Below, piece after piece: positions 28,963-47,097 of a stretch of 51,490 nt of DNA (positions are counted from its first letter, which is position 1; each line of letters starts with the position of its first letter). Both the position numbers and the translations under genes were made by a program. The notes beneath the pieces were generated by a model. That model searched no databases, was not told the DNA's origin, and saw only the letters and a list, made by a program, of their open reading frames with translations. The stretch is from the NCBI GenBank assembly GCA_041672425.1, contig JBAYZR010000001.1, positions 1 to 51,490 on the forward strand, read 5' to 3'. Origin of the DNA: Pedobacter sp. (GTDB lineage Bacteria > Desulfobacterota > Desulfuromonadia > Geobacterales > Pseudopelobacteraceae).

Positions 28963-29020
28963 TTCTTATTATCGATGATGACATTTATCACATTGGTGCA
29001 TCGCTGAAAGACTTGGGGAA
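28963..29020 (+). repeat. 58-bp direct repeat, left copy (3' gene fragment ...IIDDDIYHIGASLKDLG)
   Basis: 57/58 identical to 30324-30381. Confidence 0.85.
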
Positions 29021-31707: not shown

Positions 31708-34700
31708 ATGCCGATAGATCTACAAGACACAGGCTATGTAGATAATGGAATAGAAGAAAATGGCTATGATGATACCGTATTTATTCCCGCACCTACTAAT
31801 GACCTCTTCAATGGTCAAGTGCCAATAGAGCAAGCGATACAAAGGCTCCGCACAAAACTACTTGATATTTCATCAAAAAACCGTCTTATCAGCTACAGAT
31901 ACCCAAAAGGCAAATCAATTCAATTTGTCAATTCCCCGAACCTAAATCTCATATTCAATCGCCTTACCGAAAGCAAGCCTATTGGCATCAGCTTCGTTCA
32001 AGACCCTCCTGTAGGTAGCTATACACAGAAAAAGCCCGATGTAAAAGTCATTGCGGAATCTCTTGGGATAGATGTCGATATAGATTTCCCTCCCGAATCA
32101 TGCGCTCCCAGTACCCATAGGCGCTTGTCTAACTTACAGGCCCTTTTTTACCCCCAAGATCTTGATAAAATATGCCGCAAAATTGCAAGCGAGGCTCGTA
32201 CAGTAATCGAGGAAACCGGCACAAATATGCTGTTCCTTATTTTCGGATTCCTTGAATTCTATGATTCCGACGATTCAGAGAAACCGATTTATGCACCATT
32301 ACTCGCTGTTCCTGTCACCCTAAATCGTGGGTCAATTGACCCAATAACCAGAACCTATTTGTATTCGATAAATTATTCAGGTGAGGATGTTCATTCAAAT
32401 CAGACTTTGAATGAAAAGATGAAGCAGGATTTCACTCTTAATTTGCCTGAATATAACGATGAAGAAGAAATTGGTGAATACTTTACTGCAATCTCCCAGG
32501 CTGTCAAAAACAAGAATCGGTGGAGAGTCAGATATCAGCTGACTTTGGGGTTCTTATCTTTTGGCAAGTTGGCTATTTGGGCAGACCTCGACCCTAAAAA
32601 GTGTTCTGGGCTTCTGACTCACCCATTATTGAATGAAATATTTTCTGGCGGCAATGGGGGTGGTGTCGGACAATCCGCAGAAGATTACGAGATTGATAAC
32701 CATTATCAGGGCGAACTCCCGCTAATCTATGATGCCGATTCATCACAGCATAGCGCAATAATAGATGTTATGGACGGGAAGAATATTGTAATCAATGGAC
32801 CTCCCGGAACCGGAAAATCGCAGACAATTACGAACATTATTGCATCAGGGTTGAACGCTGGTAAAACTGTTCTGTTTGTATCAGAAAAGCTTGCGGCCCT
32901 TGAAGTTGTACGGCATCGACTGAATCACGCAAATCTTGGTCATTTTTGTTTAGAACTGCACAGTCACAAAACTCAGAAGAAAAAGCTGTTGAGTGACCTT
33001 CAAGACCGTATCGATGCCTATTTTGTTCCCCCTCAACAATTGCAAAACCGGATAACAACGCTCAACCGCCACAAGAAAGACCTCAATCGGTATGTTGAAT
33101 TAATTTCTAGTCGAATTGGTAACGAACTTGGCCTAACTGTCCATGAAATCTTCTGGAAAACAGAACGATTTCGACAAATGAACTGTGAGATGGTCAATAC
33201 CCTCACATCGTTGAACTACCAAAAGGCTGAAAACTTAACTTTAGATGAAATTGCCGATTTACGTGCAAAGGTTGAAGTTCTAGGGCAATTATATTCGACA
33301 GTCAAAACCTACGATTCCAATCATCCATGGTGGGGGTTTTTCCCAAAGCCCCTTGCTCCAGGCGATGATTCAGCAATAAGTCTTGTAATAAACGAGGCCA
33401 AGACTCTTGCTGAAGCACTTTATATTTTGACAATTGAGTTCCAAGAACGGGTTTCATTTTTGCAGGAACCATCACTTGATACGCTATTGTCTTTCAATCG
33501 TCTTGTTCAAGAACTATCGACTCCACCAGATAACCTGAGAAGTGAAATATTTCCCCGCGTATTTAATGCTGAAGACCCGCTTGGTAAGCATAACAGGGGT
33601 CTTTTGAATGGCGTAATTAGCACAGTGAAAAACGCACGGGAGCTTAAGGAACAAGCAGAGAAAAATATAGTTCCTAATTGCGAATTGAGCTATGAAACCG
33701 CAGGACCTATTCTGGAGAGTTGCAAGAGTCAACTATCAAAAACCGCTTTTAGCACACCACTTCATATTGTTGCTGAATTCGTATCAGATGCCGAAAATGC
33801 CCTATCTCAATTCAAGAACGTTATCTCAGAATACAATTACATTTATCAGTCTATACCCGGTTCAAACACTGAAAAGCTGGAAAAGTTTGATTCAAGGTTT
33901 AATGCAACATTGCCACTCACCCTTGAAGAACAGCCGGAATGTCTTATCAGAGAAGGTTCGAGATTTCTTTCAGAAGAAATAGAAAGCCTGAAACAATCTT
34001 TTGAGCGAGTATCTGCAATTGCACATCACAGGGAATTGAAATTTGATGGGACTCCAACAGAAGTTGAGAATTTGGGACGTGGAGAAGGTATCGCAGAAAT
34101 TCTTCCTGGAGTCAGAATAGACGAATCGATACTTGAAAAAACAAGACAGGCCGCAAAATACTATCTATCAGACTTGCCTATCGGTGAGACAGATAGACGG
34201 CAACAGGGACTACATGACCTGAATGACCGGGTTAACCGTTTACTCTACGAAATCGGTGGATATGCCCAAAACCTGTATTTGACGTTTGACGGTACTCAGA
34301 AATCACTCGAATACCTTGCGACAATAAGCAAGATATCATCAGCTGCACCTACAGACCTCCTAGATTACCGTCACGCACCTCTTGCACATCCAATGTCGTT
34401 AGAGCTGATACCAAAGGCTGAAGAGGCGTTACAGTCCGAATTATTACAACGACAGGCACTTACTAACGCGTTCCATCTTGATGCTTTACCTGAATTGAGC
34501 ACGTTGAAGAGTACCATGCTGACGTTTAGACGTGGTGATAGCCTTTTCAATATATTCAACAGTGACTGGAGAGCTGCAAAGAAGCTCTTTAATAACCTGT
34601 CCAAGAATAAGACAAAGCATAAGGCATCTGAATATGAAGAGAAAATATCAAAAATAATCAGCTGGCTTGAGTACAGAACGGCACTTACTTCCAACGAAGA

Positions 34701-35034
34701 CTTCAAAAGGTCGTTTGGCCCATTGTTCAGAGGTCTTGATACAGACATCTCCAAAATTAAACGGTTGCACAACTGGTATATGGAGAGCATGGCAGAGTTG
34801 CTTAAGCATCCAGGGCTTATAGATAATGTCGATTTATCTACTATGAGTTCACAGACCATTAACCAGGTGGGGGCATTATCCGCAAGGATACAGGTAATTG
34901 TAGATGAACTTAATACCAGTTTGACCGAATGCAGGGATTTTCTTGGAGAAATCGCAGTACAGATGGACTCCGTTTTAGGCAGTCTGGATGGAATGAATAT
35001 AGCAAGAAAATCAGCGAGATTGCTGATGCTTTGA
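31708..35034 (+). CDS. DUF4011 / Upf1-like SF1 helicase giant protein, N-terminal part (frameshifted)
   Basis: LRTKLLDISSKNRLISYRYPKGKSIQF and MLFLIFGFLEFYDSDD fit the DUF4011 pattern. Walker A is INGPPGTGKSQTITN. The frame switches near 34960-34990 into the ORF starting at 34929. Confidence 0.75.
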   Translation: MPIDLQDTGYVDNGIEENGYDDTVFIPAPTNDLFNGQVPIEQAIQRLRTKLLDISSKNRLISYRYPKGKSIQFVNSPNLNLIFNRLTESKPIGISFVQDPPVGSYTQKKPDVKVIAESLGIDVDIDFPPESCAPSTHRRLSNLQALFYPQDLDKICRKIASEARTVIEETGTNMLFLIFGFLEFYDSDDSEKPIYAPLLAVPVTLNRGSIDPITRTYLYSINYSGEDVHSNQTLNEKMKQDFTLNLPEYNDEEEIGEYFTAISQAVKNKNRWRVRYQLTLGFLSFGKLAIWADLDPKKCSGLLTHPLLNEIFSGGNGGGVGQSAEDYEIDNHYQGELPLIYDADSSQHSAIIDVMDGKNIVINGPPGTGKSQTITNIIASGLNAGKTVLFVSEKLAALEVVRHRLNHANLGHFCLELHSHKTQKKKLLSDLQDRIDAYFVPPQQLQNRITTLNRHKKDLNRYVELISSRIGNELGLTVHEIFWKTERFRQMNCEMVNTLTSLNYQKAENLTLDEIADLRAKVEVLGQLYSTVKTYDSNHPWWGFFPKPLAPGDDSAISLVINEAKTLAEALYILTIEFQERVSFLQEPSLDTLLSFNRLVQELSTPPDNLRSEIFPRVFNAEDPLGKHNRGLLNGVISTVKNARELKEQAEKNIVPNCELSYETAGPILESCKSQLSKTAFSTPLHIVAEFVSDAENALSQFKNVISEYNYIYQSIPGSNTEKLEKFDSRFNATLPLTLEEQPECLIREGSRFLSEEIESLKQSFERVSAIAHHRELKFDGTPTEVENLGRGEGIAEILPGVRIDESILEKTRQAAKYYLSDLPIGETDRRQQGLHDLNDRVNRLLYEIGGYAQNLYLTFDGTQKSLEYLATISKISSAAPTDLLDYRHAPLAHPMSLELIPKAEEALQSELLQRQALTNAFHLDALPELSTLKSTMLTFRRGDSLFNIFNSDWRAAKKLFNNLSKNKTKHKASEYEEKISKIISWLEYRTALTSNEDFKRSFGPLFRGLDTDISKIKRLHNWYMESMAELLKHPGLIDNVDLSTMSSQTINQVGALSARIQVIVDELNTSLTECRDFLGEIAVQMDSVLGSLDGMNIARKSARLLML

Positions 35035-38024
35035 GAGAAATTACCTCTTTCCTTAAAAACTACATAAAGCCAGATGTTTCCCCGGTTCGAGCAGTTGATG
35101 TATTGAATGCGAAATTAGAATTATCATCTGCCGTTGTTGATTTTGAAGCCCTGAATAATGGCATCAGGTTAATTCATGACAAGTATGAGCATTATCTTCC
35201 CGGAATATCCAAAATCCCTTGCAACAACTGGCGCGAGTATCTTTCTCAGCTTTCAAAACTGGCCAGCACAACCGCTTGTTTAGCCAGCTCAATACTTGAG
35301 TATGCAGACAGCAAGTGTGATTATTCAAAAGTAAGGGCATTCCTGGTTGCAAAGCTTGAGCTTGATAACGTGTTGTCAAGATTTGCCCCGTGCCCTGACA
35401 AAACAGAAACCGCAAGCTGGAAGGAATACCATTCTATAGCGGCTTCCCGAATTGCCACAGCTTCAGAGCTGGTCAATATGCTATTGCCTGTTGGAGTTGT
35501 AGGCAAGACGGCCAAAGAGATGGTAGACGGCCTGATTTCGAAGAAAAGATCCATCGATACTATTCAGGAAATCCATAACAACAAAGCAGTTATGGTCATG
35601 TTGCAAGACCTCTTTGACGGTATGGATACTGATTTAGAGGCTCTTTCAGCAACACTGGGGTGGGGCGAAGAGATTTCAAGAAAACGTAGCATACAGGGAA
35701 CGCCACTTCTTTCATATTTGTTGAGCCAAAATGCCGTAGAGAACCTAGAAGATGCAAAAATACAACTACGAAAAATAGTGGAAACGCGCCAAAGGGTTCT
35801 GGCTAAACTCACTGAATTAAAGGAATTTGGAGAGTTTGACGCAAAAGAATGGAATTGTTCAGAAGACGATTATGCTCATTTGTTTCTCAAGCGAATAGAG
35901 TGTGCTGCAACCAACTTGGATGCTGTCTTAACCTGGTCAAGATACATTCATCAACGCTCAGTCTGTCATGATAACGGCCTGAAGACTTTTGTAAATCACG
36001 TTGAGAACAAAGTAGTACCTGTTGATAATATTGGCGACATCTTTGAATACATCGTTTACCGCTCAATCGGCAGGAAAATATACCGGCAATACCCGGAACT
36101 TGAGGGCTTTAGTGGTGAAAAACATGACAAAATACGAGCAGAATTTGTTGCACTTGATAAGGAAATCATCAATCTAACCGGCAAAAGCTTTGCCTATGAT
36201 ATCGACAAGTCAAAGTGTGTTCCTGATGGGGTTTCCAGCTATAAGGTTTCTGAATTGACGGATATGCACTTATTAAGGAAAGAAATTAATAAAAAGACCA
36301 AACATATTTCAATCCGACAGCTGATACGACGCGCAGGGGATGCAATTCAGGCACTGAAACCTTGTTTCATGATGGGGCCGCTATCCGTTGCACAGTACAT
36401 ACAGCAAGGCGCAATTTCTTTCGATATGATAGTGATGGACGAAGCTTCACAACTCAGACCGGAAGAATCGTTAGGTGCTATTGCGAGAGGTTCACAGTTA
36501 ATCGTTGTTGGAGACCCCAAACAGCTCCCGCCTACCAATTTCTTTGACCGCCTGGCTGATGATAGCGAGGACGATGATGAAAGTGAAGCTGCATCAGTTT
36601 TTGCAGGCACAGAGAGTATCCTTGATATCTGCCAGCAACTGTTTCATCCGGTTCGAACGCTTAAATGGCATTACCGGTCTCAGCATGAATCCTTGATAGC
36701 ATTCTCGAACCACAATTTCTACAATGGAAAGCTGATTGTATTCCCCTCACCATTTGCCAAAAACAACCGGCTGGGACTCCGCTACCGTTACATTAAGAAC
36801 GGGGTTTACAAAGACCGTCAGAACATGGTTGAAGCACAACGGGTGGTGGATGCTGCAATTGAGCACATGATGAAATTCCCTGAAGAGTCACTGGGAATAG
36901 TGACGCTCAACCAGACACAGCGCGACCTTATCGAAGACTTAATGGACAAAAAAGTACGTAATATCGATGAAGCCCAGTCATTTATTTCGAATTGGGAAGA
37001 GGAAGGATGGCCGTTTTTCGTCAAAAACCTCGAAAATGTACAGGGTGACGAACGGGATATCATCTTCATCTCCACAACTTTCGGAAAGCCAGTAGGAGCT
37101 GATAAGGTTCGTCAGAACTTTGGCCCTATAAGCCGACCGGATGGCTGGAGGCGGCTTAACGTTCTATTTACTCGTGCCCGTAGAAAAATAGAGCTTTTCA
37201 CATCAATGTTGCCAGAGGATATAATCATTGCGGCAGGTACACCAGCAGGGACAAGAGCCTTAAGGGATTACCTGGATTTTGCCAAGCGTGGGGTACTCGC
37301 TTCGACAGAGGTAACGGGACGTGAGGAAGACAGCGATTTTGAGATTTCTGTAGGCGATATGTTACGGAATCGAGGATACGAAGTTGTGCCTCAAGTTGGA
37401 GTCGCGGGCTTTTTTATTGACCTGGCTGTACGAAATCCCGACCGCCCTGGTGAATTCCTGGCAGCTGTTGAGTGCGATGGTGCCAGCTACCATTCCAGTG
37501 CTTCAGCCAGAGACCGCGACCGAATCAGGCAGAGTATCCTTGAGTCTCTTGGCTGGAGGGGCCGCATTTGGCGTATCTGGTCAACTGATTGGTTCTACAA
37601 TCCAAGAAGGGAATCAGAAAAACTAATAAACTTCCTTGAAGAACGAAGGGAAATTTCCAAAACAGAGCAAATTGACTATGAGATCGAAGAGGTATTTGAA
37701 GAGGATGATACCGTAATTATTCAGCCAGCGCCAGAAGAAGCAGCTGATACTTTAGAACCATCTCTGCCCGTTGCAAATGAGGAACTTTATGTTGAAGTCG
37801 GAGATTTAGTCACCTATTGCCATGTAGATAACCCAGAAGAACGCAAAACAGCGACGATTGTTGAAACCGAAAGCAATATACAAAAACACTTTGTCAACGA
37901 AAACACCCCGCTTGCTAAAGCCATGCTGGATTCTGCCGTAGGCGATACTGTAGGAATTGTCGTAGCCGGTGGTCATCCTAAAGTAATCAAAATTCTGAAA
38001 ATTCAGCGGCAGGGGGAGGGCTGA
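34929..38024 (+). CDS. Same giant protein, C-terminal part: helicase motifs II-VI, DUF559/Vsr-like endonuclease fold, DUF3320-like tail
   Basis: Helicase motifs IVMDEASQ, VVGDPKQLPPT, WHYRSQHESLIAFSNHNFYNGKL and NVLFTRARRKIELFTS. These are followed by FFIDLAVRNP...AVECDGASYHSSASARDRDRIRQSILESLGW...IWSTDWF. Confidence 0.75.
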   Translation: MQGFSWRNRSTDGLRFRQSGWNEYSKKISEIADALREITSFLKNYIKPDVSPVRAVDVLNAKLELSSAVVDFEALNNGIRLIHDKYEHYLPGISKIPCNNWREYLSQLSKLASTTACLASSILEYADSKCDYSKVRAFLVAKLELDNVLSRFAPCPDKTETASWKEYHSIAASRIATASELVNMLLPVGVVGKTAKEMVDGLISKKRSIDTIQEIHNNKAVMVMLQDLFDGMDTDLEALSATLGWGEEISRKRSIQGTPLLSYLLSQNAVENLEDAKIQLRKIVETRQRVLAKLTELKEFGEFDAKEWNCSEDDYAHLFLKRIECAATNLDAVLTWSRYIHQRSVCHDNGLKTFVNHVENKVVPVDNIGDIFEYIVYRSIGRKIYRQYPELEGFSGEKHDKIRAEFVALDKEIINLTGKSFAYDIDKSKCVPDGVSSYKVSELTDMHLLRKEINKKTKHISIRQLIRRAGDAIQALKPCFMMGPLSVAQYIQQGAISFDMIVMDEASQLRPEESLGAIARGSQLIVVGDPKQLPPTNFFDRLADDSEDDDESEAASVFAGTESILDICQQLFHPVRTLKWHYRSQHESLIAFSNHNFYNGKLIVFPSPFAKNNRLGLRYRYIKNGVYKDRQNMVEAQRVVDAAIEHMMKFPEESLGIVTLNQTQRDLIEDLMDKKVRNIDEAQSFISNWEEEGWPFFVKNLENVQGDERDIIFISTTFGKPVGADKVRQNFGPISRPDGWRRLNVLFTRARRKIELFTSMLPEDIIIAAGTPAGTRALRDYLDFAKRGVLASTEVTGREEDSDFEISVGDMLRNRGYEVVPQVGVAGFFIDLAVRNPDRPGEFLAAVECDGASYHSSASARDRDRIRQSILESLGWRGRIWRIWSTDWFYNPRRESEKLINFLEERREISKTEQIDYEIEEVFEEDDTVIIQPAPEEAADTLEPSLPVANEELYVEVGDLVTYCHVDNPEERKTATIVETESNIQKHFVNENTPLAKAMLDSAVGDTVGIVVAGGHPKVIKILKIQRQGEG

Positions 38025-38101
38025 GGGACGTACTTGAAAAGTTGATTTGAGAGGGCAAAAGGGTCAGTTGGGAAAGTTTTCAAGAGTGTCGCCTTACGGG
38101 A

Positions 38102-38232
38102 CCGGATATCTTGAAAGGCCGCATATCTCGGAACGGGGCAACTTCATTGAAATAGCCAACTATTTCGGCGGCGCGGAAAAGCTTCGGGAAGCGGCAAATG
38201 AGCTGCAAACGCTGCTCTATGCGGGATTCTAA
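38102..38232 (+). pseudogene. hsdR 3'-end remnant no. 2
   Basis: Encodes ...ISERGNFIEIANYFGGAEKLREAANELQTLLYAGF*, homologous to the last residues of the intact HsdR at 28667. Confidence 0.85.
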
Positions 38233-38553
38233 GTTTGCGATATTGATATTGATGAATAAGTGGTTCCATAGGTTGATTCGGGAAAATCAACCGTTGTCAT
38301 ATCTGCATATATTATGAAGTTTCAGTGCTACTGGATCGAGATAAATGGGTGTTGAACAATGCGAAATACTTTATGAACACAGAGTAAATATTCCGTTTGG
38401 ACAGATGACCTGTTTTTGCGCGCGCGTGAACTGCTCAACAATGAGTTGAACAAACCCGATAACAGATCAAATTCAAACCAAGAAACCGAGCGTCCTTGAA
38501 GGCCGCTGAACAAAGCATACTAGAATATCAATTCAAACTAAAATGTGGAGGAG

Positions 38554-40773
38554 ATGATGAGTGTTTGGAGCGTAGATGCTGATGATATTAAAACCGAACA
38601 AGATTTTGAAGAGGTTTTACTTTACAAAACACCATGGATTGATAATTTTCTGGACATGGAAAGAGGAAGTAAATTTATTGTAATAGCAACAAAAGGATTT
38701 GGTAAAACATTTCTACTCAAAGCAAAAAGAATAATGTTTCAAAAAGAGCGAAAAGATATTCAGTGTATTCCTGAAAATAGTTTACTTGACAAACCTGCGG
38801 GTGAGACCATTTTCAGTGCTGAAATGTGTGATTTTTATAGTGGCACATCTAACCACTGGGTAACTATTTGGACGGCATCTATTGTAATAACGGTACTCAA
38901 ACAGTTGGGTAAATTATCCGACGATGATTTAAGCAAGAAATTATCAGTACTAAAGAATAACAACTTAAAAACTGTTACAGACCATTTAGTAAACATTTTG
39001 AAAATGGGGCGTGAAAATTACTTCGAATTAGTTGACAACTATAATGAAAATCTAATTCCTAAGTCAAAGAACATTCATTCACCGATTGCAATATTTATAG
39101 ATAATGTTGATGAATATTTTAAAAAACATATTAATCCAGAGATAATGCGCCCAAGCGATGTTGGTGAAGTATCGCCAACTATCTGGTATTATTCGCAGAT
39201 TGGTTTAATTGAAGCAATATATCAATTACAAAGGTCAAATCACCATTTAAAGGTATTTGCTTCAATTAGAAAAGAAGCAGTTTTAAAACTTAAAGAATTT
39301 GACCCAATGATTCAGCAGTACCTTGGAAGCAGTGTAGATGTTGTTTATTCTCGGCAAGACATCATGGAGATTTTTATAAAAAATATTAAGAAAGATAAAA
39401 ATCTCATTGATGCTTCAATAAAAGAAAATAATCCTATCCAAGCGTTTTTAGGGCTATTGCAAGTAACACATTCATTGTCTCGAGAAAAAGAAAACATCTT
39501 TGATTACATTTACCGCCACACGTTACAAAGACCACGCGATTTCATGGTTATTGGCGCAAGAATATCAGACACGAGACCATTAGATAGAACAGAAGATAAT
39601 TTAAAGATAATAATCAACAAAGCTGCTTCCGATATAGCTACGCAATATATTAATGAAACATTACCGCATATCGATGGCCTTGATTATGACAAACTATTCG
39701 AGCTTATTGACAAAAACATATTAACAAAAAAAGATGTTAATAAAATATGCAGTAAATATAATAGTAATAGTTGCTATGATTCTGACTGTAAATTGTGTGA
39801 TCTTAACCATGTATTTTGTAATTTGTACAAAGCAGGGCTATTAGGTTACATAAGAAAAGATCTTGTCTATGCGTCAAAAATACAAAAATTTGCCTTGCCT
39901 GGCGAATACACGTTTGATCCGAACGGAATATTACCGACATCTCCTTATTATTTTCTTCACCCAATATTAGAGGAAAAAATTCGGTCACTAAATCCAAAAT
40001 TCGAGAAAAACATCGCCAAAATAATAATAGGTTATGATCATCCATGGAACGGGTTGAAGCAAACCACACCCTCGATTTTACCAGACCAATTAAGAGATGG
40101 CACAACAAAAAAAATAGTACTTGTTGCCTGTCATCCAGACGACGAAGTATTATCATCAGGAGCATTGCTTTTGAAGGCAGCGCGCCAGGGTTTTCAAATA
40201 TTCTTGGTTTTGGTTACTCAGGGAGAAAGTAGTGGTAGTTTAAATGCAAAAAATCGAAAAGATGAAGCAAATGAAATTGCACTCAAACTTAACGCCACCA
40301 TTACATTTTTAAACTATTCCAATAATGACCTACTTTGTGACGGCAAAATTGATCTTTCTGAAACAACAAAGGAAGTAGAAAAATTAATTAAAGATATTTC
40401 TCCTGATATTATTGTTTGGCCACACGGAGAATCACCTGACCAACATCAAGATCATGTAACACTCCACAAGGCGATTACAAATATCCAGAAACGTTATAAA
40501 TCTGATCAATGTTGCTGGATTGCAGCACAACCACCTGTTTTCGGTGACAGCGGTTTCAAACCAACGAACTATTTAAAAATTGATGCCGAACTTTTAAAAC
40601 AAAAGTATAGATTGATGAGACTGTATAAATCTGAAAAATTAAAAAAATTCGCGTCATATCAATTCATCAAAACAAAAGCCCTACATTGGGCAAGTGAAGG
40701 TAATTGTAGTTTTGATTATGCTGAACCATTTCAGCTTCATAAAGGCTTTCTACCACTTGAGCTTTTTGTGTGA
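38554..40773 (+). CDS. P-loop NTPase fused to a PIG-L/LmbE-family metal-dependent deacetylase
   Basis: GGAGGA RBS, then ATG at 38554 or 38557. Walker A IATKGFGKTFLL, Walker B IAIFIDNVDE. The C-terminal ~220 aa carry VLVACHPDDEVLSSGA and ESPDQHQDH, the PIG-L zinc-ligand motifs HPDD and HxDH. Confidence 0.7.
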   Translation: MMSVWSVDADDIKTEQDFEEVLLYKTPWIDNFLDMERGSKFIVIATKGFGKTFLLKAKRIMFQKERKDIQCIPENSLLDKPAGETIFSAEMCDFYSGTSNHWVTIWTASIVITVLKQLGKLSDDDLSKKLSVLKNNNLKTVTDHLVNILKMGRENYFELVDNYNENLIPKSKNIHSPIAIFIDNVDEYFKKHINPEIMRPSDVGEVSPTIWYYSQIGLIEAIYQLQRSNHHLKVFASIRKEAVLKLKEFDPMIQQYLGSSVDVVYSRQDIMEIFIKNIKKDKNLIDASIKENNPIQAFLGLLQVTHSLSREKENIFDYIYRHTLQRPRDFMVIGARISDTRPLDRTEDNLKIIINKAASDIATQYINETLPHIDGLDYDKLFELIDKNILTKKDVNKICSKYNSNSCYDSDCKLCDLNHVFCNLYKAGLLGYIRKDLVYASKIQKFALPGEYTFDPNGILPTSPYYFLHPILEEKIRSLNPKFEKNIAKIIIGYDHPWNGLKQTTPSILPDQLRDGTTKKIVLVACHPDDEVLSSGALLLKAARQGFQIFLVLVTQGESSGSLNAKNRKDEANEIALKLNATITFLNYSNNDLLCDGKIDLSETTKEVEKLIKDISPDIIVWPHGESPDQHQDHVTLHKAITNIQKRYKSDQCCWIAAQPPVFGDSGFKPTNYLKIDAELLKQKYRLMRLYKSEKLKKFASYQFIKTKALHWASEGNCSFDYAEPFQLHKGFLPLELFV

Positions 40774-40794
40774 TTTAACAAAGGTGAAAAAACG

Positions 40795-41616
40795 ATGAAA
40801 CCCGTTGAAAACGTATACGAAGTTGCCTTTATACTTCTCAGCTCGGTTGGCGGAGCGGCTGTGATTATTTGGAGCCTTTCATCCTGGCTCGGAAAGGTTT
40901 GGGCTAATCGGATTTTGGAATCTGAAAAAGCCAAATATACTAAAGAACTTGACTCCATCAGACATCAATTTCAGGTCGAACTGAATCGTGTGTCTATCAT
41001 TCATGAAAACCAAAAAATCAGCTTTCGAAACGTAATAATAGCATTAAGTAAAGCAATAAAGGCTTTAGAGCAGGCTTATGACGAAGAATGGTGTCCCATA
41101 AGTGATCGTAAATATGATGAATTGAGGAATATTGTGATCGAAGAATCTCTGTTTCTTGGGAAAGATGGAGAAAATGCATTGGATGTATTTTTGAAGTTTT
41201 TCGGAAAATCAACATATTTTCCAGAAATAGAAATTCAACCAGATCGGATGCTTAGGAACGTTTATGAATACTTGACTTACATCGATGGCAGAATTCGGGA
41301 GTACTTTAGAAAACGAATTGGACTGTCAGACGAAGAAAATCCGCTTTTTGAGGTTTACTTGCTAGACGTTTGTTTAATTCTCAATGACTACCATCCGAAG
41401 GGGAACCGGTTCACCTATGATGAAATCTTTAATTTTGATTTTGACTCTCCTCCATTGGTATTGATTGAAAAATATATATCTAATTTAGATGCACTTAAAG
41501 CAAATATGAAAAAATACATTGAAATAGTTGAGATAGACGACAAAAATAGGAAATTTTACTTTGAAGATCTTTCTAGGATAAGAATGTATTTGAAGCTTAT
41601 ATGTTCCAAGGGATAA
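40795..41616 (+). CDS. Single-pass membrane protein with a helical cytoplasmic domain
   Basis: 273 aa, 21 nt after the previous stop, with an AAAGGTGA RBS. The N-terminal hydrophobic helix is VAFILLSSVGGAAVIIWSLSSWLG. Confidence 0.6.
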   Translation: MKPVENVYEVAFILLSSVGGAAVIIWSLSSWLGKVWANRILESEKAKYTKELDSIRHQFQVELNRVSIIHENQKISFRNVIIALSKAIKALEQAYDEEWCPISDRKYDELRNIVIEESLFLGKDGENALDVFLKFFGKSTYFPEIEIQPDRMLRNVYEYLTYIDGRIREYFRKRIGLSDEENPLFEVYLLDVCLILNDYHPKGNRFTYDEIFNFDFDSPPLVLIEKYISNLDALKANMKKYIEIVEIDDKNRKFYFEDLSRIRMYLKLICSKG

Positions 41617-41747
41617 CGAACGTGTTTGAAAGTAACCGGTCGCCAAACACAGCCCGTTGAACTAATCCGCTTCGCGGAAAGTGCAAATCAAGCAAGTTAC
41701 AAGTGAAAAAACTCACCAACCACTCAACAATCATTGGGGATCGGTAT

Positions 41748-42458
41748 ATGCACCCATTAACATATTTTGTTGACGAATCGATCAAGGTCTTTGATGGAGA
41801 TGAAATTTGTGCGCTAATTGCAATTAAGACAATAGATTCTTCCAAGCTGAATTCACTTATCAGAGATTCAATAGCTAGAATTATTTCTGACCCAGTATTA
41901 AGTCAGCATAGCGGAATAAACGGCACATGGATTCCGCACTACTGTAATGACCACCCAATTGAAGTGCACCCGCAATTCTTGCGAGACATCTCCCAAATGC
42001 CATTTGAGGCATATATTGTATTTGGTCAAAAAAATAAGTTTCCGCAACTAGATGAGTACGACTGGTATGATAATCTGATAAAAATCCTATTTACGTTCAG
42101 GTTGTCTGCTGACAAGGGGCGCATTGATAGAGTCGTGTACGAGCAGCATGATTCCAAACTGGGCAAGAGGGAAATCCACCTACAGAAGTTATTTCAGTCA
42201 ATGACTCAGAAGGATGCACAAAGACGAAGAACCGAGACAACCAGCATACTGGTTAAGTCTGCTGGCAAAGATGTACTGCCTCTATGTTTGTCAGACTACA
42301 TCGGTGGAAGCTTTATGTCGTATCTGTGCGAGACTGACAAGTCAAAGCTGGGGCCAAAACGAAGAGGATTTGAATTAGTAGCAAAAAAGATACGCTGGAT
42401 CAAGAATGCCGACAGTAGCGAAATATATACATCAAAACATCCATTTTATAAGGATTGA
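41748..42458 (+). CDS. DUF3800-like protein
   Basis: ATG at 41748 after GGGGA. The track ORF starts at a GTG at 41703. The N-terminal YFVDES and C-terminal PLCLSDYIGG resemble the DUF3800 DESG and LQ-x-AD motifs, recalled from memory. Confidence 0.45.
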   Translation: MHPLTYFVDESIKVFDGDEICALIAIKTIDSSKLNSLIRDSIARIISDPVLSQHSGINGTWIPHYCNDHPIEVHPQFLRDISQMPFEAYIVFGQKNKFPQLDEYDWYDNLIKILFTFRLSADKGRIDRVVYEQHDSKLGKREIHLQKLFQSMTQKDAQRRRTETTSILVKSAGKDVLPLCLSDYIGGSFMSYLCETDKSKLGPKRRGFELVAKKIRWIKNADSSEIYTSKHPFYKD

Positions 42459-42483
42459 CAGGCATGCTCCAAACTGCGAATAT
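42455..42483 (+). promoter_or_regulatory. Sigma70-like promoter candidate overlapping the DUF3800-like gene stop
   Basis: TTGACA (42455-42460), a 17-nt spacer, then GAATAT (42478-42483). The predicted start near 42490 coincides with the 5' arm of the RNA stem. Confidence 0.4.
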
Positions 42484-42488
42484 GCAAC

Positions 42489-42574
42489 TGCTGGAGGGCG
42501 TGGGTAAATCGCCTCGGGCGCGAGTCGCGCTCGATTTTCTTCGACACTTTCAATCTTACCTACGTCCTCTGGCA
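42489..42574 (+). ncRNA. Structured RNA candidate (19-bp stem with 4 G-U pairs enclosing a GC hairpin); possible retron ncRNA part or RT leader
   Basis: GCTGGAGGGCGTGGGTAA (42490-42507) pairs with TTACCTACGTCCTCTGGC (42556-42573) through 14 Watson-Crick and 4 G-U pairs, plus one further flanking T-A pair. These four positions would be A-C mismatches on the opposite strand. The inner hairpin is GGGCGCG-AGT-CGCGCTC. Confidence 0.4.
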
Positions 42575-42576
42575 AT

Positions 42577-43506
42577 ATGATTAAATACGAACTCATAAAA
42601 AACATTGATGGTCTAAGCCTAAATCTTGGGGTCACACGTGCATATCTGACTCAAGCCATTGAGTCGCCCATTCTTCAGTACAATGTTGCAAAGATCCCCA
42701 AACGAGGCGGTAAGGGGCGGCGCACTTTGTATCTCGCCAACGACATTCTAAAAGGCATACAAAAAATTATCCGTGATGACTTGACTGACAGAACTAAATG
42801 GCCGGATTGCGTTCATGGTTTTGTAAAAGACCGGTCAATTGCAACCAACGCAAAGTTACATCTATCGAAGCGTGTTATTTTAAATTTAGACATCAAATCC
42901 TATTTTGAATCTATAGACAAGGCTAAAGTCGCGCAGGTTTTTTGCACACTCGGAGCAACTGAAAAAATTGGCGATCTGTTGGCTGCAATATGCACATGCG
43001 ATGACTACTTGGTGCCTGGGACTGTTTGTGCCCCTATTATTTCAAATATGGTGTTTTCCAATTGCGACAAAGACCTTCTTGAAATCGCAGCAAAATTTCA
43101 ATGCACATACTCAAGATATGTTGATGACATTACATTTTCCGGAGAAAACACCCCTCCGATTAAAGAGATAGACAACGTACTTAAATACCATGGGTTTTTT
43201 AGAAATACAGAGAAAACATTTCGGCAGACCCGTGGTCGAAGGCAATACGTCACTGGATTAACCGTGTTCGACCGAACCATTCCAAGAATTCCAAAATGGA
43301 AAAAAAACGAATTCAGAAAAAAAATTCATTTTATGGAGAAATATGGAATAGATGGCCATTTATCCAGAATTGGAAGCAGAGAATCAGTCGTAGATTTTGT
43401 AATAAGGTTTGATGGGCTGATTAGCTTCTATCTATCGATCGAGCCACACTTTATATCTAAATACATGGGAAATTGGCAAAAAGCTAAGAATTCTTGGGGA
43501 TATTAG
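42577..43506 (+). CDS. Retron-type reverse transcriptase
   Basis: 309 aa with IPKRGGKGRRTLY, HGFVKDRSIATNAKLH, LNLDIKSYFESI, YSRYVDDITFSG (YxDD box) and RRQYVTGLTVF (retron VTG motif). Confidence 0.85.
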   Translation: MIKYELIKNIDGLSLNLGVTRAYLTQAIESPILQYNVAKIPKRGGKGRRTLYLANDILKGIQKIIRDDLTDRTKWPDCVHGFVKDRSIATNAKLHLSKRVILNLDIKSYFESIDKAKVAQVFCTLGATEKIGDLLAAICTCDDYLVPGTVCAPIISNMVFSNCDKDLLEIAAKFQCTYSRYVDDITFSGENTPPIKEIDNVLKYHGFFRNTEKTFRQTRGRRQYVTGLTVFDRTIPRIPKWKKNEFRKKIHFMEKYGIDGHLSRIGSRESVVDFVIRFDGLISFYLSIEPHFISKYMGNWQKAKNSWGY

Positions 43507-43558
43507 CGGGCTCTCAATGCATTTCCCTCTGGAAGGGTCAACCACATATGAACCAACT

Positions 43559-43606
43559 AAAACGCCGTTAAGCCCTTTATTCTCCAAGGCGTAACGGCGT
43601 TTTTTA
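43559..43606 (+). terminator. Rho-independent terminator after the RT gene
   Basis: AAAACGCCGTTA ... TAACGGCGTTTTTT. Confidence 0.65.
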
Positions 43607-43667
43607 GGAAGGTTGAGGGGGCGTACTTGAAAAGTTGAGTTGAGAGGGCAGTCCCCTTTCTGGACCC

Positions 43668-43877
43668 TTTAGCCTCGAAGCTAGGGCTATTCTCGAAGAA
43701 CTACTGGAAAAATACGCCCAGCATGGCACCGCCCAATTTATTGTGCCGGATATCCTCAAAGTACCCCCTATTTCGGAACGGGGCAATGTCATTGAAATAG
43801 CCAACTATTTCGGCGGCGCGGAAAAGCTTCGGGAAGCGGTAAATGAGCTGCAAACGCTGCTCTATGCGGGATTCTAA
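43668..43877 (+). pseudogene. hsdR 3'-end remnant no. 3
   Basis: Encodes SLEARAILEELLEKYAQHGTAQFIVPDILKVPPISERGNVIEIANYFGGAEKLREAVNELQTLLYAGF*. An in-frame TGA lies just upstream and there is no start codon. Confidence 0.9.
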
Positions 43878-43967
43878 TGCAGAAAGACTGATATTATTAC
43901 CACGTATTCGTTGATATCACTGGAATAATTAAAGCAATTATTAAGTACTCTGCTATGGAGGAATGAC

Positions 43968-46900
43968 ATGATTGATATCCCACTTGGGCTTAGAAACACG
44001 CTTGAATCAGGGAATTGTGTCCTATTCATTGGGGCGGGTGTCGGTGGGCACTTAACTGATCCAGTCGGACGAAGTGCTCCTGATGGTGGTACTTTGGCTA
44101 GGGAGTTGGGGGACCACTTCGGAATTGACGTTGGAGATGCTCCGGATTTGATGAAAATCTCCAAGTTGGTTGAAATTCGTAAGGGGAGACAGGCCCTAGA
44201 GCTGTTTTTAAAAAAGAGACTAGCGAATCTTGAGCCTGACGAAAAGCTAAGGACTTTATTGACTCGAAGATGGAGAGCAATATTTACTACTAATTATGAT
44301 AATAGCATAAAGCGTGGGTTCGAGTTGTCTGAATCACCACAACAAAATCCAATTATTATTACTTCAACATCTGAAATAGTTGACTATGATGCAAGGTTTC
44401 AGGTGCCGATATACTATCTCCATGGCGCATTGTTTGGAGAAGAGATAACTAATATTGTAATTACTGACGATGACTACTCTACATTCAGAGAAAGTAGGAA
44501 GATGTTATTTGAACTTCTTAAAAAGGAGTTTATTACCTGTCCCATTCTTTATGTTGGATATAGCAATAGAGACCCAAACTGGAAAATTGTACTTTCAGAG
44601 ATTACTTCTGAATTTTATCCTTCGCCGTTACCTAAATCTTTCAGGATTGACCCTTATGCTGATGGCCACGACATAGAAATTATGTCTGCTAAGAACATTG
44701 ATACTGTAAATGCTACCATTGCTGACTTCTCGGATACCATTGCAGCAGAACTTCCTATAGATGCTGGAATATCAGATCGTCTTGCTAAACTTAAGGTCAA
44801 TATATCAGCAGATTTTTTAGATGCATTTGAACAAAACCCGGCCCCAGTAGTGCGCCTACTTTCATCATGGGAATACGTTAACGATGCCAATTTTGCGGGT
44901 GCACCTAATGTTCATAACTTTTTGCGAGGTGACCGACCAAACTGGGGTTTGATTGGAAAAAATGATGTCTTTGTAAGAGATATTGAAGAAGACGTATATA
45001 ATGATGTCATTGACTTTGCAACAATGGAAAACGTTCGGCCTTTTCAATCAGTTATTCTTGGGTCAGCAGGCTATGGTGTTACTACATTATTGATGACTAT
45101 TGCTGCAAGTATAATAAAAGAAAAAGCTGGAGCTGTTCTTTTCTTAAAGCCTGGTCGTCAACTGCTAGAGGGAGATGTAGATTTTGCCCTCTCAGTGATT
45201 AAAGGTAATGTTTATTTTATAATAGATAATGCTGCTGACAATCATCATAATCTGGCAGTAATGATCCAAAAACTTCGCGACGAAAAGAAAACCTGCTACT
45301 TCCTGGTTGGTGACAGAATAAACGAGTGGAGGCAGGTACAAGGGAAGGTTTCATTCAAGGAATTCGTGTTTGAACCTCTAACCGATCCTGAAATATATCG
45401 TTTGCTTGACTACCTTGCAAAACATAATGAGCTTAACACCTTAGAAGGCCTAACAAAGGAATTGCAATTTACCGCGATCAAGAATGTTCATGGCAAAGAA
45501 TTATTGATTGCTATGAGGGAGGCAACTGAAAATAAAAGCTTCGATGCGATTTTGGAAGATGAATTTTGGGGTATTGGTGATGCCTTTTCAAGAACAATGT
45601 ATCTTTATGTCTGTTTCTTTTATCAACATGGTGCATTTGTTAGGGCTTCTCTGCTTGCTGATCTCTTGGGTGTAGATGAGTCTGAGCTGTATGCTAGGAC
45701 AAAAAGTTCGACAGAAGGGGTTGTCCTTTTCGACTGCCTGAACGAGAGCACAGGCATGTATGGTGCAAGAACCCGTCATCGTACAATTGCTAATATTGTT
45801 TGGGACAGGTGTGGTGATGCTACAGAAAAAGAAGGCATAATCTATAAGGCTCTGGACGCAATCAATCTGACCTACAAAGCAGATAAAGACGCTTTTGAGT
45901 ACTTCACGAAGTCAGATTATATTGTTGACAGCATCAGGACCCTTGAGGGCAAAACAAAATTCTTTGAGGTTGCATGTCGTAAAGATCCTGTCAACCCATA
46001 TGTTCGCCAACATTATTCTCGTATGCTAGTACGCGAAAACAGGCATGAACTTGCGCTGTCACAAATTGACGAAGCATTAAAACTTAACCAACGACTTAGG
46101 GCGCTTTATCACACTAGGGGCATAGTTTTAATGCACATGGCACATTTTGCGGAGAGTTCTGATATTGGACGACGAAGGATGGCACAAAGTGAGTCCATGT
46201 TTAGAAAGTGCCTGTCCATGTATCCCAGGGACGACTATAGCTATCAAGGATTGGCTCAACTTTACATTGGATGGGCAAAAAAGAGACCTGAAACACCAGA
46301 AGAGGTAGCTGAATATGTTGGTAAGGCGGAGGGGGTAATAAATGAAGGTCTTCGTGTTGTTCGGGTACGAGATGCCTTATACATTGAGTCTTCAAATATC
46401 CAACAGCTGATTGGAGACGAACCATCTTATCTTCGTGCTCTCGAAAACGCCGTTAGGGTGAATGATGCAAGCGTTATAGCACGGTATTTGCTCGGTCGCG
46501 CCTACCGAAAGGCTGGCCGTTATAATGACGCCACTACTGTATTAGAATATATTATCAAAAACTTTATAGATGAGTTTAGATGCTTTATCGAATATGGCTT
46601 GTGTCTAATTTACAAGAAACAGTCATACACCAGTGCGATAGCTGTAATGAGCCTCAGTACTCTTTATGGTTTTAGTGATCCAAGATACCTTGCAACACTG
46701 GGAGGTATGTACTTCCTGAACCAGCAATTCGAGGAAGCTACTAGAATATTCAGTGAGACTGGTAGGCGGAATTTCACTGCAAATGAATTGAACGCCATCC
46801 AGTTTATTCCACCTGACCCCACGGACATCTCACAGGAATTACGTTTTACCGGCTCTTGCATTAAAACAAAGCCAGGATACTCTCTCGTAGAGACACCCGG

Positions 46901-47027
46901 GTATCCGCCATTCTTGCTCCCTGGTTCAAAGTATGACGGGATGGTGATTCACGAAGGGGTTAAAATGTCCTTTGTTCCAGCATTTACTGCGCGAGGAAAT
47001 ATCGCTCATCGTCCGTTACCAACTTGA
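43968..47027 (+). CDS. SIR2-STAND-TPR protein (Avs5-like / SIR2-STAND antiviral ATPase architecture)
   Basis: 1019 aa with a GGAGGA RBS. SIR2_2-type motifs CVLFIGAGVG, IFTTNYDN and YYLHGAL. The central P-loop-like region is VILGSAGYGVTTLLM with YFIIDNAADN. The C-terminus holds TPR-like repeats (YQGLAQLYIGWA, RYLLGRAYRKAGRYNDA). Confidence 0.75.
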   Translation: MIDIPLGLRNTLESGNCVLFIGAGVGGHLTDPVGRSAPDGGTLARELGDHFGIDVGDAPDLMKISKLVEIRKGRQALELFLKKRLANLEPDEKLRTLLTRRWRAIFTTNYDNSIKRGFELSESPQQNPIIITSTSEIVDYDARFQVPIYYLHGALFGEEITNIVITDDDYSTFRESRKMLFELLKKEFITCPILYVGYSNRDPNWKIVLSEITSEFYPSPLPKSFRIDPYADGHDIEIMSAKNIDTVNATIADFSDTIAAELPIDAGISDRLAKLKVNISADFLDAFEQNPAPVVRLLSSWEYVNDANFAGAPNVHNFLRGDRPNWGLIGKNDVFVRDIEEDVYNDVIDFATMENVRPFQSVILGSAGYGVTTLLMTIAASIIKEKAGAVLFLKPGRQLLEGDVDFALSVIKGNVYFIIDNAADNHHNLAVMIQKLRDEKKTCYFLVGDRINEWRQVQGKVSFKEFVFEPLTDPEIYRLLDYLAKHNELNTLEGLTKELQFTAIKNVHGKELLIAMREATENKSFDAILEDEFWGIGDAFSRTMYLYVCFFYQHGAFVRASLLADLLGVDESELYARTKSSTEGVVLFDCLNESTGMYGARTRHRTIANIVWDRCGDATEKEGIIYKALDAINLTYKADKDAFEYFTKSDYIVDSIRTLEGKTKFFEVACRKDPVNPYVRQHYSRMLVRENRHELALSQIDEALKLNQRLRALYHTRGIVLMHMAHFAESSDIGRRRMAQSESMFRKCLSMYPRDDYSYQGLAQLYIGWAKKRPETPEEVAEYVGKAEGVINEGLRVVRVRDALYIESSNIQQLIGDEPSYLRALENAVRVNDASVIARYLLGRAYRKAGRYNDATTVLEYIIKNFIDEFRCFIEYGLCLIYKKQSYTSAIAVMSLSTLYGFSDPRYLATLGGMYFLNQQFEEATRIFSETGRRNFTANELNAIQFIPPDPTDISQELRFTGSCIKTKPGYSLVETPGYPPFLLPGSKYDGMVIHEGVKMSFVPAFTARGNIAHRPLPT

Positions 47028-47097
47028 AACACTGCTCGAACTTTCCCTATTTCCGATCTTGAAATTAGAATATTTGCTTAATCCTAAAAGGAAACCA

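What the first reader, a model, noticed from the sequence alone, without database searches (positions are those of the whole stretch)
38545..43506. AT-rich four-gene cassette: NTPase-PIG-L deacetylase, 1-TM protein, DUF3800-like protein and retron-type RT (candidate undescribed defence system)
Four co-directional ORFs lie exactly between hsdR scars 2 and 3. Their base composition is visibly more AT-rich than the flanks, judged by eye and not computed. A single terminator closes the block at 43559-43606. Gene A is a P-loop NTPase fused to an LmbE/PIG-L deacetylase. Gene B is a single-pass membrane protein. Gene C is DUF3800-like. Gene D is a clear retron-type RT with YVDD and VTG motifs. From memory of the Mestre et al. 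retron classification, RT plus DUF3800 is the gene pair of type VII retrons. I know of no retron or other defence system that includes a PIG-L deacetylase-NTPase fusion or this membrane protein. The scar-defined boundaries argue that the four genes travelled as one unit. The location, inside an R-M locus on an integrase island and next to a SIR2-STAND gene, argues for an antiviral role. It may be one extended retron system or two adjacent two-gene systems (A+B and C+D).
Basis: partly seen in the sequence, partly recalled or inferred. Interest (0 to 1): 0.9.

Follow-up and report, generated by a model that had tools for sequence, protein, structure and literature searches.

The report
Three stacked defence modules, not one
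The four genes are real, but they are three unrelated modules that happen to sit side by side in a bacterial anti-virus gene island: a known kind of retron with a previously unreported candidate RNA, a rare ATPase fused to a sugar deacetylase that may be a new single-protein defence, and an orphan membrane protein.

Summary
Four co-directional ORFs with the claimed domains lie between two duplicated hsdR 3' ends, and a terminator-like hairpin closes the block.

The one-system reading does not hold. In every related locus I could fetch, A, B and C+D occur apart.
- The two full-length A homologues (78% and 47% identity) have no B, C or D in the DNA available; both contigs are under 5 kb.
- B homologues (54-78%) have no A, C or D.
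- RT homologues (44-79%) always have the DUF3800 gene directly upstream and never A or B.

C+D is a type VII-A2 retron, which is a known class. New here is an ~86-nt structured element in the C-D gap. It is conserved in all six distinct VII-A2 loci examined. It is the best candidate for the msr-msd RNA, which a 2026 preprint still lists as unidentified for this type.

Gene A is an Sll1717-family, AAA+/STAND-like ATPase with a C-terminal PIG-L zinc deacetylase. Relatives carry DUF4062/NIR, bSEFIR or a PD-T4-6-like kinase at the same position, so PIG-L sits in an immune-effector slot. I saw this fusion in only three proteins. Gene B is an orphan single-pass membrane protein.

Verdict: partly supported, moderate interest.

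The parts
38025..38250 (+). hsdR 3'-end remnant ('scar 2'). It includes a 33-nt junction motif at 38025-38057 that is shared with scar 3.
   Evidence: Direct-repeat families D1 and D4; three-way alignment with the real hsdR end at 28461-28685.
38557..40773 (+). Gene A (738 aa). An Sll1717-family, AAA+/STAND-like P-loop ATPase (residues ~1-500) is fused to a C-terminal PIG-L/LmbE zinc deacetylase. The deacetylase spans roughly residues 515-734, about nt 40096-40746.
   Evidence: The RBS and homologue N-termini support the start at 38557.
40795..41616 (+). Gene B (273 aa). Single-pass membrane protein: an N-terminal TM helix with the invariant motif SSWLGKVWANRILE, a long stalk helix and a C-terminal helical bundle. 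No known family.
41748..42458 (+). Gene C (236 aa from ATG 41748; the longer ORF starts at GTG 41703). DUF3800-type effector of a type VII-A2 retron, with the N-terminal D-E motif (YFVDES).
   Evidence: PADLOC DUF3800_VII 4.8e-18 and RT-DUF3800_VII-A1 1.3e-17. The exhaustive search found only 45 relatives, including ~580-aa proteins that match over their C-terminal ~230 residues, the length and position expected of RT-DUF3800 fusions. A homologue lies directly upstream of every related RT.
42455..42483 (+). Promoter-like hexamers: TTGACA (overlapping the stop codon of C), 17 nt, then GAATAT.
   Evidence: Read from the sequence. TTGACA is invariant in four loci. The -10 is weak, and the consensus scan did not list this site.
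42489..42574 (+). Candidate retron ncRNA (msr-msd). A long-range helix pairs 42489-42507 with 42556-42574. It encloses an invariant 9-bp hairpin (42514-42534) and a ~21-nt variable single-stranded stretch (42535-42555).
   Evidence: MFE -49.5 kcal/mol, z -4.4. Conserved in six distinct VII-A2 loci. 92.7% of cells paired against 38-51% when the partners are slid; 6 pairs changed on both sides, reached by 0/500 shuffles. The gap stays 73-76% identical while coding DNA drops to 54-58%. The covariance model hits only VII-A2 loci in 925 kb.
42577..43506 (+). Gene D (309 aa). Retron reverse transcriptase, best match RT_VII-A2.
43559..43604 (+). Intrinsic-terminator-like hairpin followed by U6.
   Evidence: Fold; sequence.
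43618..43895 (+). hsdR 3'-end remnant ('scar 3').

Best explanation
The 5.4-kb block is a stack of three modules that are inherited independently. They sit in a defence island between hsdR and hsdM of a type I R-M operon.

(1) C, the ncRNA and D form a type VII-A2 retron. The RT gene is preceded by its own promoter-like site and an ~86-nt structured RNA.
- Inferred by analogy with characterised retrons: the RT recognises the invariant hairpin and uses the RNA as primer and template to make a short msDNA. The RT-msDNA complex keeps the RNase-H-like DUF3800 protein inactive. When a phage disturbs the msDNA, the effector is released, attacks nucleic acid and aborts the infection.

(2) Gene A is a self-contained protein. 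An AAA+/STAND-like ATPase acts as sensor and switch for a C-terminal PIG-L zinc deacetylase. That domain occupies the position where relatives carry NADase or kinase immune effectors.
- Inferred: a phage cue triggers nucleotide-dependent assembly, which activates deacetylation of a GlcNAc-bearing metabolite such as UDP-GlcNAc or a cell-wall precursor. Growth stops.

(3) Gene B is an unrelated single-pass membrane protein of unknown role that recurs in other defence islands.

Shown here: the gene and domain identities, the lack of linkage between modules, and the conservation of the RNA element.
Inferred: all mechanisms and all anti-phage activity.
For: Linkage (tblastn of A, B, C and D against all fetched loci).
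- The A homologues L001 (78%) and L002 (47%) have other neighbours: PDC-S19 and Imm50 in L001, a PIN toxin-antitoxin pair in L002.
- The B homologues in L003-L010 (54-78%) have no A, C or D. Their neighbours are unrelated to each other.
- The RT homologues in L013-L017 and L033-L035 (44-79%) always have C directly upstream and never A or B.
- None of 80 retron RT loci from viral contigs has A, B or C.

Retron identity; the family definition is from PMC7736814.

ncRNA.

Gene A family.
- The Sll1717 ATPase model NF047389 hits A at 73.3 bits, P0003 at 75.2, P0004 at 76, P0064 at 82 and L036 at 130.
- The C-terminal domain is swapped at the same position: DUF4062 at 519-595 in P0004, a kinase at 479-750 in P0005 (PADLOC mad6 and PD-T4-6), bSEFIR at 561-716 in L036, and PIG-L at ~520-640 in A.
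- DUF4062/NIR is described as a validated NADase immune effector in two 2026 preprints.
- Foldseek on the ATPase part gives the NLR NRC3 (probability 0.99, E 2.9e-3), then ORC/Cdc6, DnaA and TnsC.
- The catalytic and zinc motifs are intact.
Against: - The sample is small. There are only two other full-length A homologues, both on contigs under 5 kb. L001 ends 600 bp after A.
- A and B are 21 nt apart, have similar low GC and have no terminator between them, so they are probably co-transcribed here.
- B always follows a co-directional gene, so a partner that varies from locus to locus cannot be excluded.
- No experiment shows defence for any type VII retron that I could find, nor for A or B.
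- The candidate ncRNA is far shorter than classical msr-msd RNAs, and no conserved unpaired branching G follows the 5' arm.
- Only six distinct sequences support the structure.
- The commonest relatives of A (~690 aa) are not obviously in defence islands. L011 is not; L012 lies beside TIR genes.
Confidence: 0.6

Rival explanations
1. Two adjacent two-gene systems. A (ATPase-deacetylase sensor/enzyme) works with B (membrane effector) as a pair, next to an independent C+D retron.
For: - The gap between A and B is 21 nt, with the same strand and no terminator.
- A and B share an unusually low GC (0.335 and 0.355 against 0.39-0.41 for C and D).
- Single-pass membrane proteins are common abortive-infection effectors (general knowledge).
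- In all four contexts seen, B follows a co-directional gene at 21-149 nt.
Against: - Both other full-length A proteins lack B downstream; Imm50 and a toxin-antitoxin pair follow instead.
- All eight B loci lack any A-like ATPase.
- The genes upstream of B elsewhere share no similarity with A or with each other.
- ATPase-family relatives are single genes.
Confidence: 0.15
2. One extended four-gene retron system in which A and B are extra accessory proteins of the VII-A2 retron.
For: - The four genes sit between the same two hsdR scars, on one strand, with a single strong terminator at the end.
- Retron types with two accessory genes exist (PMC7736814).
Against: - None of six distinct VII-A2 loci has A or B. 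The genes upstream of C differ each time: TIR plus HNH, Ros/MucR, hsdS, and a phosphoketolase.
- The retron has its own promoter-like site.
- A and C/D differ in GC3, 0.27 against 0.38-0.42.
Confidence: 0.04
3. Only the retron is a defence system. A is a signalling or metabolic ATPase-deacetylase and B an ordinary membrane protein, both carried as passenger cargo in the island.
For: - Neither A nor B hits any PADLOC model.
- The most common relatives of A (~690 aa; JGI names them 'class 3 adenylate cyclase') look like signalling proteins, and one sits among housekeeping genes.
- All characterised PIG-L enzymes are metabolic.
Against: - A sits in defence or mobile contexts in all three cases seen: between an Hhe/ProA-like gene and the retron in the window, next to PDC-S19 in L001, and next to a toxin-antitoxin pair in L002.
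- In relatives the effector slot holds bSEFIR, DUF4062/NIR or a PD-T4-6-like kinase, all immune domains.
- B homologues lie beside AbiTii, toxin-antitoxin pairs and TIR-caspase genes.
Confidence: 0.2

Closest known systems
Retron type VII-A2 (Mestre et al. 2020, PMC7736814): clade-4 retron RT plus a separate DUF3800 protein
   Same: - The best PADLOC models are RT_VII-A2 and DUF3800_VII.
- The gene order is DUF3800 then RT.
- The N-terminal D-E motif is present.
- Among the relatives are ~580-aa proteins that match over their C-terminal part, the length and position expected of VII-A1 RT-DUF3800 fusions (their RT domain was not scanned).
   Different: - Nothing defining differs.
- Added here: a conserved structured RNA and promoter-like site between the two genes. 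The literature lists the ncRNA of this type as not determined or not identified.
- The element (~86 nt) is much shorter than classical msr-msd RNAs.
Single-protein NTPase-effector immune proteins (Avs/STAND proteins, including NIR-Avs2; the bSEFIR system)
   Same: - One polypeptide combines an AAA+/STAND-like P-loop module with a swappable enzymatic effector domain.
- Relatives of A carry bSEFIR, DUF4062/NIR or PD-T4-6-like kinase domains.
- It is located in a defence island.
   Different: - The ATPase belongs to the Sll1717 family (NF047389), not to an Avs, NACHT or NB-ARC family recognised by PADLOC.
- The effector is C-terminal, not N-terminal.
- There is no TPR, WD40 or LRR sensor array.
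- The effector is a PIG-L deacetylase. I found no described defence system that uses one as an effector.
PIG-L/LmbE zinc deacetylases (BshB1, MshB, diacetylchitobiose deacetylase)
   Same: - The Pfam PIG-L hit is well above its cut-off.
- The HPDD(E) and HxDH zinc and catalytic motifs are present.
- Foldseek matches Dac and BshB structures.
   Different: - Scores are far below every equivalog cut-off (44.9 against 182.5 for BshB1), so this is not one of the known thiol-pathway or chitobiose enzymes.
- It is fused to a 500-aa ATPase.
- The substrate is unknown.
Defence genes embedded between the subunit genes of type I R-M operons
   Same: The cassettes lie between hsdR (26292-28667) and hsdM/hsdS (46972-50808). 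L033 shows another VII-A2 retron directly after an hsdS gene.
   Different: Here each accretion step left a copy of the hsdR 3' end, so the history of stacking can be read from the sequence.

Membership tests
Retron type VII-A2 | Retron-clade RT with the NAxxH, YxDD and VTG motifs that matches the VII-A2 RT profile best | tested here: met
   PADLOC RT_VII-A2 9.9e-73 is the top hit. NAKLH is at residue 91, YVDD at 181 and VTG at 225.
Retron type VII-A2 | Adjacent separate DUF3800-family protein with an N-terminal D-E motif | tested here: met
   PADLOC DUF3800_VII 4.8e-18. YFVDES lies at residues 6-11. Pfam PF12686 itself gives no hit for C but gives weak hits for the L034 and L035 orthologues.
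Retron type VII-A2 | Contiguous ncRNA (msr-msd) with flanking inverted repeats | tested here: inconclusive
   A conserved 16-19-bp long-range helix, a hairpin and a variable stretch lie directly upstream of the RT. There is no Rfam match and no assignable branching G, and the element is unusually short.
Retron type VII-A2 | Production of msDNA and anti-phage activity | not testable with these tools
   This needs expression, nucleic-acid gels or sequencing, and phage challenge.
Sll1717-family P-loop ATPase (NCBIfam NF047389) | Whole-protein score at or above the curated cut-off of 75 bits | tested here: inconclusive
   A scores 73.3 bits, just under the cut-off. The homologues pass: P0003 75.2, P0004 76, P0064 82 and L036 130 bits.
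PIG-L/LmbE deacetylase superfamily (PF02585) | Domain score above the gathering threshold, with intact HPDD and HxDH metal and catalytic motifs | tested here: met
   73.7 bits against 28.2. CHPDDE and HQDH align with AHADD and HPDH of 2ixd.
Avs-type STAND defence proteins | N-terminal effector, central STAND NTPase and C-terminal repeat sensor, recognised by Avs profiles | tested here: not met
   No PADLOC hit at E<0.1. The effector is C-terminal and no repeat array is present. Only the fold is similar (NRC3, ORC, DnaA).
Any system in PADLOC-DB v2 (genes A and B) | A profile hit to a known or candidate defence protein | tested here: not met
   Zero families for A and for B at E<0.1. DefenseFinder was not available.
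   No co-occurrence in 2 full-length A loci, 8 B loci, 9 VII-A2 loci (6 distinct) or 80 other retron loci.

The most novel reading that the evidence does not exclude
Two readings are not excluded.

(1) Gene A is a self-contained anti-phage protein. An Sll1717-type, STAND-like ATPase switches on a PIG-L zinc deacetylase. This would be a new immune effector chemistry: deacetylation of a GlcNAc-bearing metabolite instead of NAD+ or nucleic-acid destruction.

(2) The ~86-nt element between C and D is the long-missing msr-msd of type VII retrons, and it templates an unusually short msDNA.
Probability: 0.3. Interest if true: 0.7.

Novelty: new variant of a known kind. Interest (0 to 1): 0.5.

Why it matters
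- The result corrects an attractive but wrong reading. Lying between the same scars on one strand does not make one system.
- It gives type VII-A2 retrons a concrete, testable ncRNA candidate with coordinates. A 2026 preprint still lists the msr-msd of this type as unidentified. Knowing it is a prerequisite for studying the mechanism or using these RTs as tools.
- By the domain-swap argument, it nominates PIG-L deacetylase as a possible new immune effector attached to an ATPase family that also carries NADase and kinase effectors.
- The repeated hsdR 3' ends record stepwise cassette stacking inside a type I R-M operon.

Tried and rejected
- Rfam (E up to 5) found no RNA family in 37900-44100; there were only chance-level hits.
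- Megablast of 38000-44000 against E. coli genomes and plasmids found nothing.
- Back-translated RT patterns in genome contigs found no relative.
- The ncRNA pattern GTGGGTAAN{3,6}CTCGGGCGCGAG returned 15 loci from metagenome and genome contigs. Only one (L018, the same contig as L017) encodes C/D. I treat the others as chance GC-rich matches.
- A looser ncRNA pattern in viral contigs gave no match.
- tblastn of C against plasmids gave no match.
- Foldseek of the B model against the PDB gave nothing below E 0.5. No fold assignment was made.
- The 'class 3 adenylate cyclase' name that JGI gives to the common ~690-aa relatives could not be confirmed by Pfam or by a profile search of PDB sequences. 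I do not rely on it.
- I rejected reading the 9-bp hairpin plus T-run at 42514-42540 as a terminator for gene C. The T-run is not conserved in the other loci, whereas the enclosing helix is.
- An R-x4-H motif in B (RVSIIH) might suggest a HEPN domain. The Arg is not conserved in the family alignment, so I dropped the idea.
- The plasmid contexts of distant A and B relatives were uninformative.

Full report
**1. Observation**

The four co-directional ORFs exist. Homologue alignments and ribosome-binding sites move two start codons. Gene A starts at ATG 38557 (738 aa). Gene C starts at ATG 41748 (236 aa).

The claimed domains are recovered.
- A: PIG-L scores 73.7 bits against a gathering score of 28.2. 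An N-terminal ~450-residue match to NCBIfam NF047389, 'P-loop ATPase, Sll1717 family', scores 73.3 bits against a cut-off of 75.
- B: no family matches. It has one hydrophobic segment at residues 6-30.
- C: PADLOC DUF3800_VII, E 4.8e-18.
- D: PADLOC RT_VII-A2, E 9.9e-73, is the best of 69 RT profiles. The motifs NAKLH, YVDD and VTG are present.

The 'scars' are real. The resident hsdR gene (26292-28667, ResIII plus EcoEI_R_C domains) has its 3' end duplicated at 38025-38250 and at 43618-43895.

A terminator-like hairpin with a U6 tail closes the block at 43559-43604.

The AT-richness claim is only partly right. A (GC 0.335, GC3 0.27) and B (0.355) stand out. C and D (0.39-0.41) resemble the rest of the 29-47 kb island. 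The host hsdR and hsdM genes are at 0.55.

**2. Are the four genes one system?**

- Only two other full-length A proteins appeared among the best 120 hits in 5.8 billion protein clusters.
  - In L001 (78% identity), A lies between a PDC-S19 candidate defence gene and an Imm50 gene.
  - In L002 (47% identity), A is followed by a small antitoxin-like gene and a DUF3368 PIN gene.
  - Both contigs are under 5 kb.
- B homologues (54-78%) sit in three different contexts, L003, L004-L006 and L007-L010, beside AbiTii, toxin-antitoxin pairs and TIR-caspase genes. The genes flanking B there are unrelated to each other and to A.
- RT homologues (79, 67, 64, 50 and 44% identity) all have a C homologue immediately upstream (74, 72, 60, 43 and 33% identity). 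The genes upstream of C differ every time: TIR plus HNH, Ros/MucR, hsdS, and a phosphoketolase.
- tblastn of A, B, C and D against every fetched locus found no case of A or B with C/D, or of A with B. The set included 80 retron RT loci from viral contigs.

I conclude that only C+D is a conserved unit. A and B are separate passengers. The scars show that the DNA between them was accreted as one piece in this lineage. They say nothing about function.

**3. The retron**

RT plus a separate DUF3800 protein with an N-terminal D-E motif is the definition of type VII-A2 (PMC7736814).

An exhaustive HMMER search with C found only 45 relatives in 1.84 billion representatives. Several are ~580-aa proteins that match over their C-terminal ~230 residues, the length and position expected of VII-A1 RT-DUF3800 fusions; I did not scan them for an RT domain.

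That paper lists the ncRNA of type VII as 'nd'. A 2026 preprint states that the msr-msd of types VII-A1 and VII-A2 has not been identified.

The 118-nt C-D gap is the only conserved non-coding DNA of the locus.
- Regions upstream of C and downstream of D align at chance level, with 53% and 44% mean column identity.
- The gap stays 73-76% identical even where the coding DNA has fallen to 54-58%.

The gap contains the following, in order:
- a perfect TTGACA that overlaps the stop codon of C, then a weak -10 (GAATAT) 17 nt later;
- a 16-19-bp long-range helix pairing 42489-42507 with 42556-42574;
- inside that helix, a sequence-invariant 9-bp hairpin (42514-42534);
- a ~21-nt stretch that varies between loci.

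The evidence for the structure is as follows.
- The MFE is -49.5 kcal/mol, z = -4.4, with 0 of 200 shuffles folding as well.
- Across six distinct loci, 92.7% of pair cells are standard pairs, against 38-51% when the partners are slid.
- Six pairs change on both sides, a count reached by 0 of 500 shuffles.
- The cyanobacterial locus L034 (RT 44% identical) keeps the hairpin core CGCGAGUCG and has a different outer-helix sequence.
- A covariance model hits only VII-A2 loci in 925 kb of fetched DNA, but those are the sequences it was built from.

This layout matches the classical a1/a2 repeats flanking msr-msd: a promoter, an inverted-repeat-bounded RNA, then the RT.

Three caveats apply.
- The element is much shorter than known retron RNAs.
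- No unpaired conserved G follows the 5' arm, so the priming site cannot be assigned.
- Only six sequences were available.

The 3' arm ends 3 nt before the RT start codon, so the helix would occlude the RT ribosome-binding region.

**4. Gene A**

The ATPase part (residues 1-500) is 44-46% identical to hundreds of ~690-aa proteins. It models with good confidence. Its nearest folds are the NLR NRC3 (probability 0.99, E 2.9e-3), ORC/Cdc6, DnaA and TnsC, so it is an AAA+/STAND-like module with a helical or winged-helix extension.

The C-terminal domain is swapped within the family at one position:
- PIG-L in A, P0002 and P0003;
- DUF4062 in P0004;
- a protein kinase in P0005 that matches the PADLOC mad6 and PD-T4-6 models;
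- bSEFIR in a more distant member on a Butyrivibrio plasmid.

DUF4062 (NIR) and SEFIR are reported as NADase immune effectors.

The PIG-L domain therefore sits in an immune-effector slot. Its HPDD(E) and HxDH motifs are intact. Its scores are far below every curated BshB, MshB and Mca cut-off, so it is not one of the known pathway enzymes.

I found no paper describing a defence system with a PIG-L effector.

The proposed mechanism is cue-triggered, nucleotide-dependent activation of a deacetylase that acts on a GlcNAc-bearing metabolite. This is inference only.

**5. Gene B**

The AlphaFold model (mean pLDDT 83.6) shows an 88-residue N-terminal helix, made of the TM segment and a stalk, followed by a helical bundle. 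No PDB fold match falls below E 0.5.

The motif SSWLGKVWANRILE is invariant across a wider family whose C-terminal parts differ. Its role is unknown. Its contexts suggest, but do not prove, a defence-island gene.

**6. Context**

In order along the window:
- AbiEi (25452-26231);
- hsdR;
- an AAA_14/DUF4143 gene;
- an Hhe/ProA-like helicase split into two overlapping ORFs;
- scar 2;
- A, B and the retron;
- scar 3;
- a SIR2-TPR protein with a ThsA-like SIR2 domain;
- hsdM and hsdS.

**7. Verdict**

- The retron is a new member of a known kind, with a new and testable ncRNA candidate.
- A is a rare new variant of the NTPase-effector theme.
- B is an orphan.
- The claim of a four-gene 'undescribed system' is not supported.

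Interest is 0.5.

Noticed in passing
window 28461-28685, 38025-38250, 43618-43895: Three copies of the hsdR 3' end lie between hsdR and hsdM: the real one and two remnants. The two remnants resemble each other more (89-95%) than they resemble the resident gene (79%). Each begins with a shared 33-nt motif, GGGRCGTACTTGAAAAGTTGAKTTGAGAGGGCA. This looks like stepwise cassette accretion in which each incoming piece brought its own hsdR end.
   Followed up: partly
window 31708-35034 and 34929-38024: An Hhe/ProA-like DUF4011 helicase is split into two overlapping ORFs in different frames (PADLOC PDC-S37 and Hhe; NCBIfam Hhe_antiphage and antiphage_ProA). This is a frameshifted pseudogene or an assembly error. 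The C-terminus also gives weak GreA-like hits.
   Followed up: no
window 28963-29020 and 30324-30381: A 58-nt direct repeat (98% identical) flanks the AAA_14/DUF4143 ATPase gene (29124-30314). The gene may have been inserted into, or duplicated part of, another coding sequence.
   Followed up: no
L033 3-2039, 2036-2776, 2922-3923: A second VII-A2 retron sits directly after a type I R-M hsdS gene. The DUF3800 gene start overlaps the hsdS stop by 4 nt. This retron type may recur inside type I R-M operons.
   Followed up: no
window 42556-42579: The 3' arm of the candidate ncRNA helix ends 3 nt before the RT start codon, and no obvious Shine-Dalgarno sequence lies outside the helix. Translation of the RT may depend on the state of this RNA structure.
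   Followed up: no
window 40795-40920 (B residues 1-42); proteins P0149-P0185: The TM segment plus the SSWLGKVWANRILE motif is invariant in about 30 aligned proteins whose C-terminal domains are unrelated. They include Vibrio and Alteromonas proteins. It looks like a shared membrane-anchor module of unknown function.
   Followed up: partly
L003 8942-9874; L007 8999-9598: In two contexts the gene after the B homologue also encodes an N-terminal TM helix followed by a long helical region. It has no sequence similarity to B. Tandem membrane-anchored helical proteins may be a recurring arrangement.
   Followed up: no
window 40096-40746; L120 5019-5657 (Stenotrophomonas phage DLP_5): The PIG-L domain of A matches phage family phrog_11796 over its full length (E 1.1e-20). 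In phage DLP_5, a distant PIG-L gene (25% identical) sits in a cluster annotated WcaG, WecE, methyltransferase and N-acetyl-alpha-D-glucosaminyl L-malate synthase, which looks like a nucleotide-sugar pathway.
   Followed up: partly
window 43968-47027 and 46972-48531: The SIR2 (ThsA-like)-TPR ORF overlaps the longest hsdM ORF by 56 nt. The third cassette therefore abuts hsdM directly, and the true hsdM start is probably further downstream.
   Followed up: no
window 25452-26231: An AbiEi antitoxin gene lies just upstream of hsdR. No AbiEii partner was recognised; the neighbouring 340-aa ORF on the minus strand has no Pfam hit.
   Followed up: no
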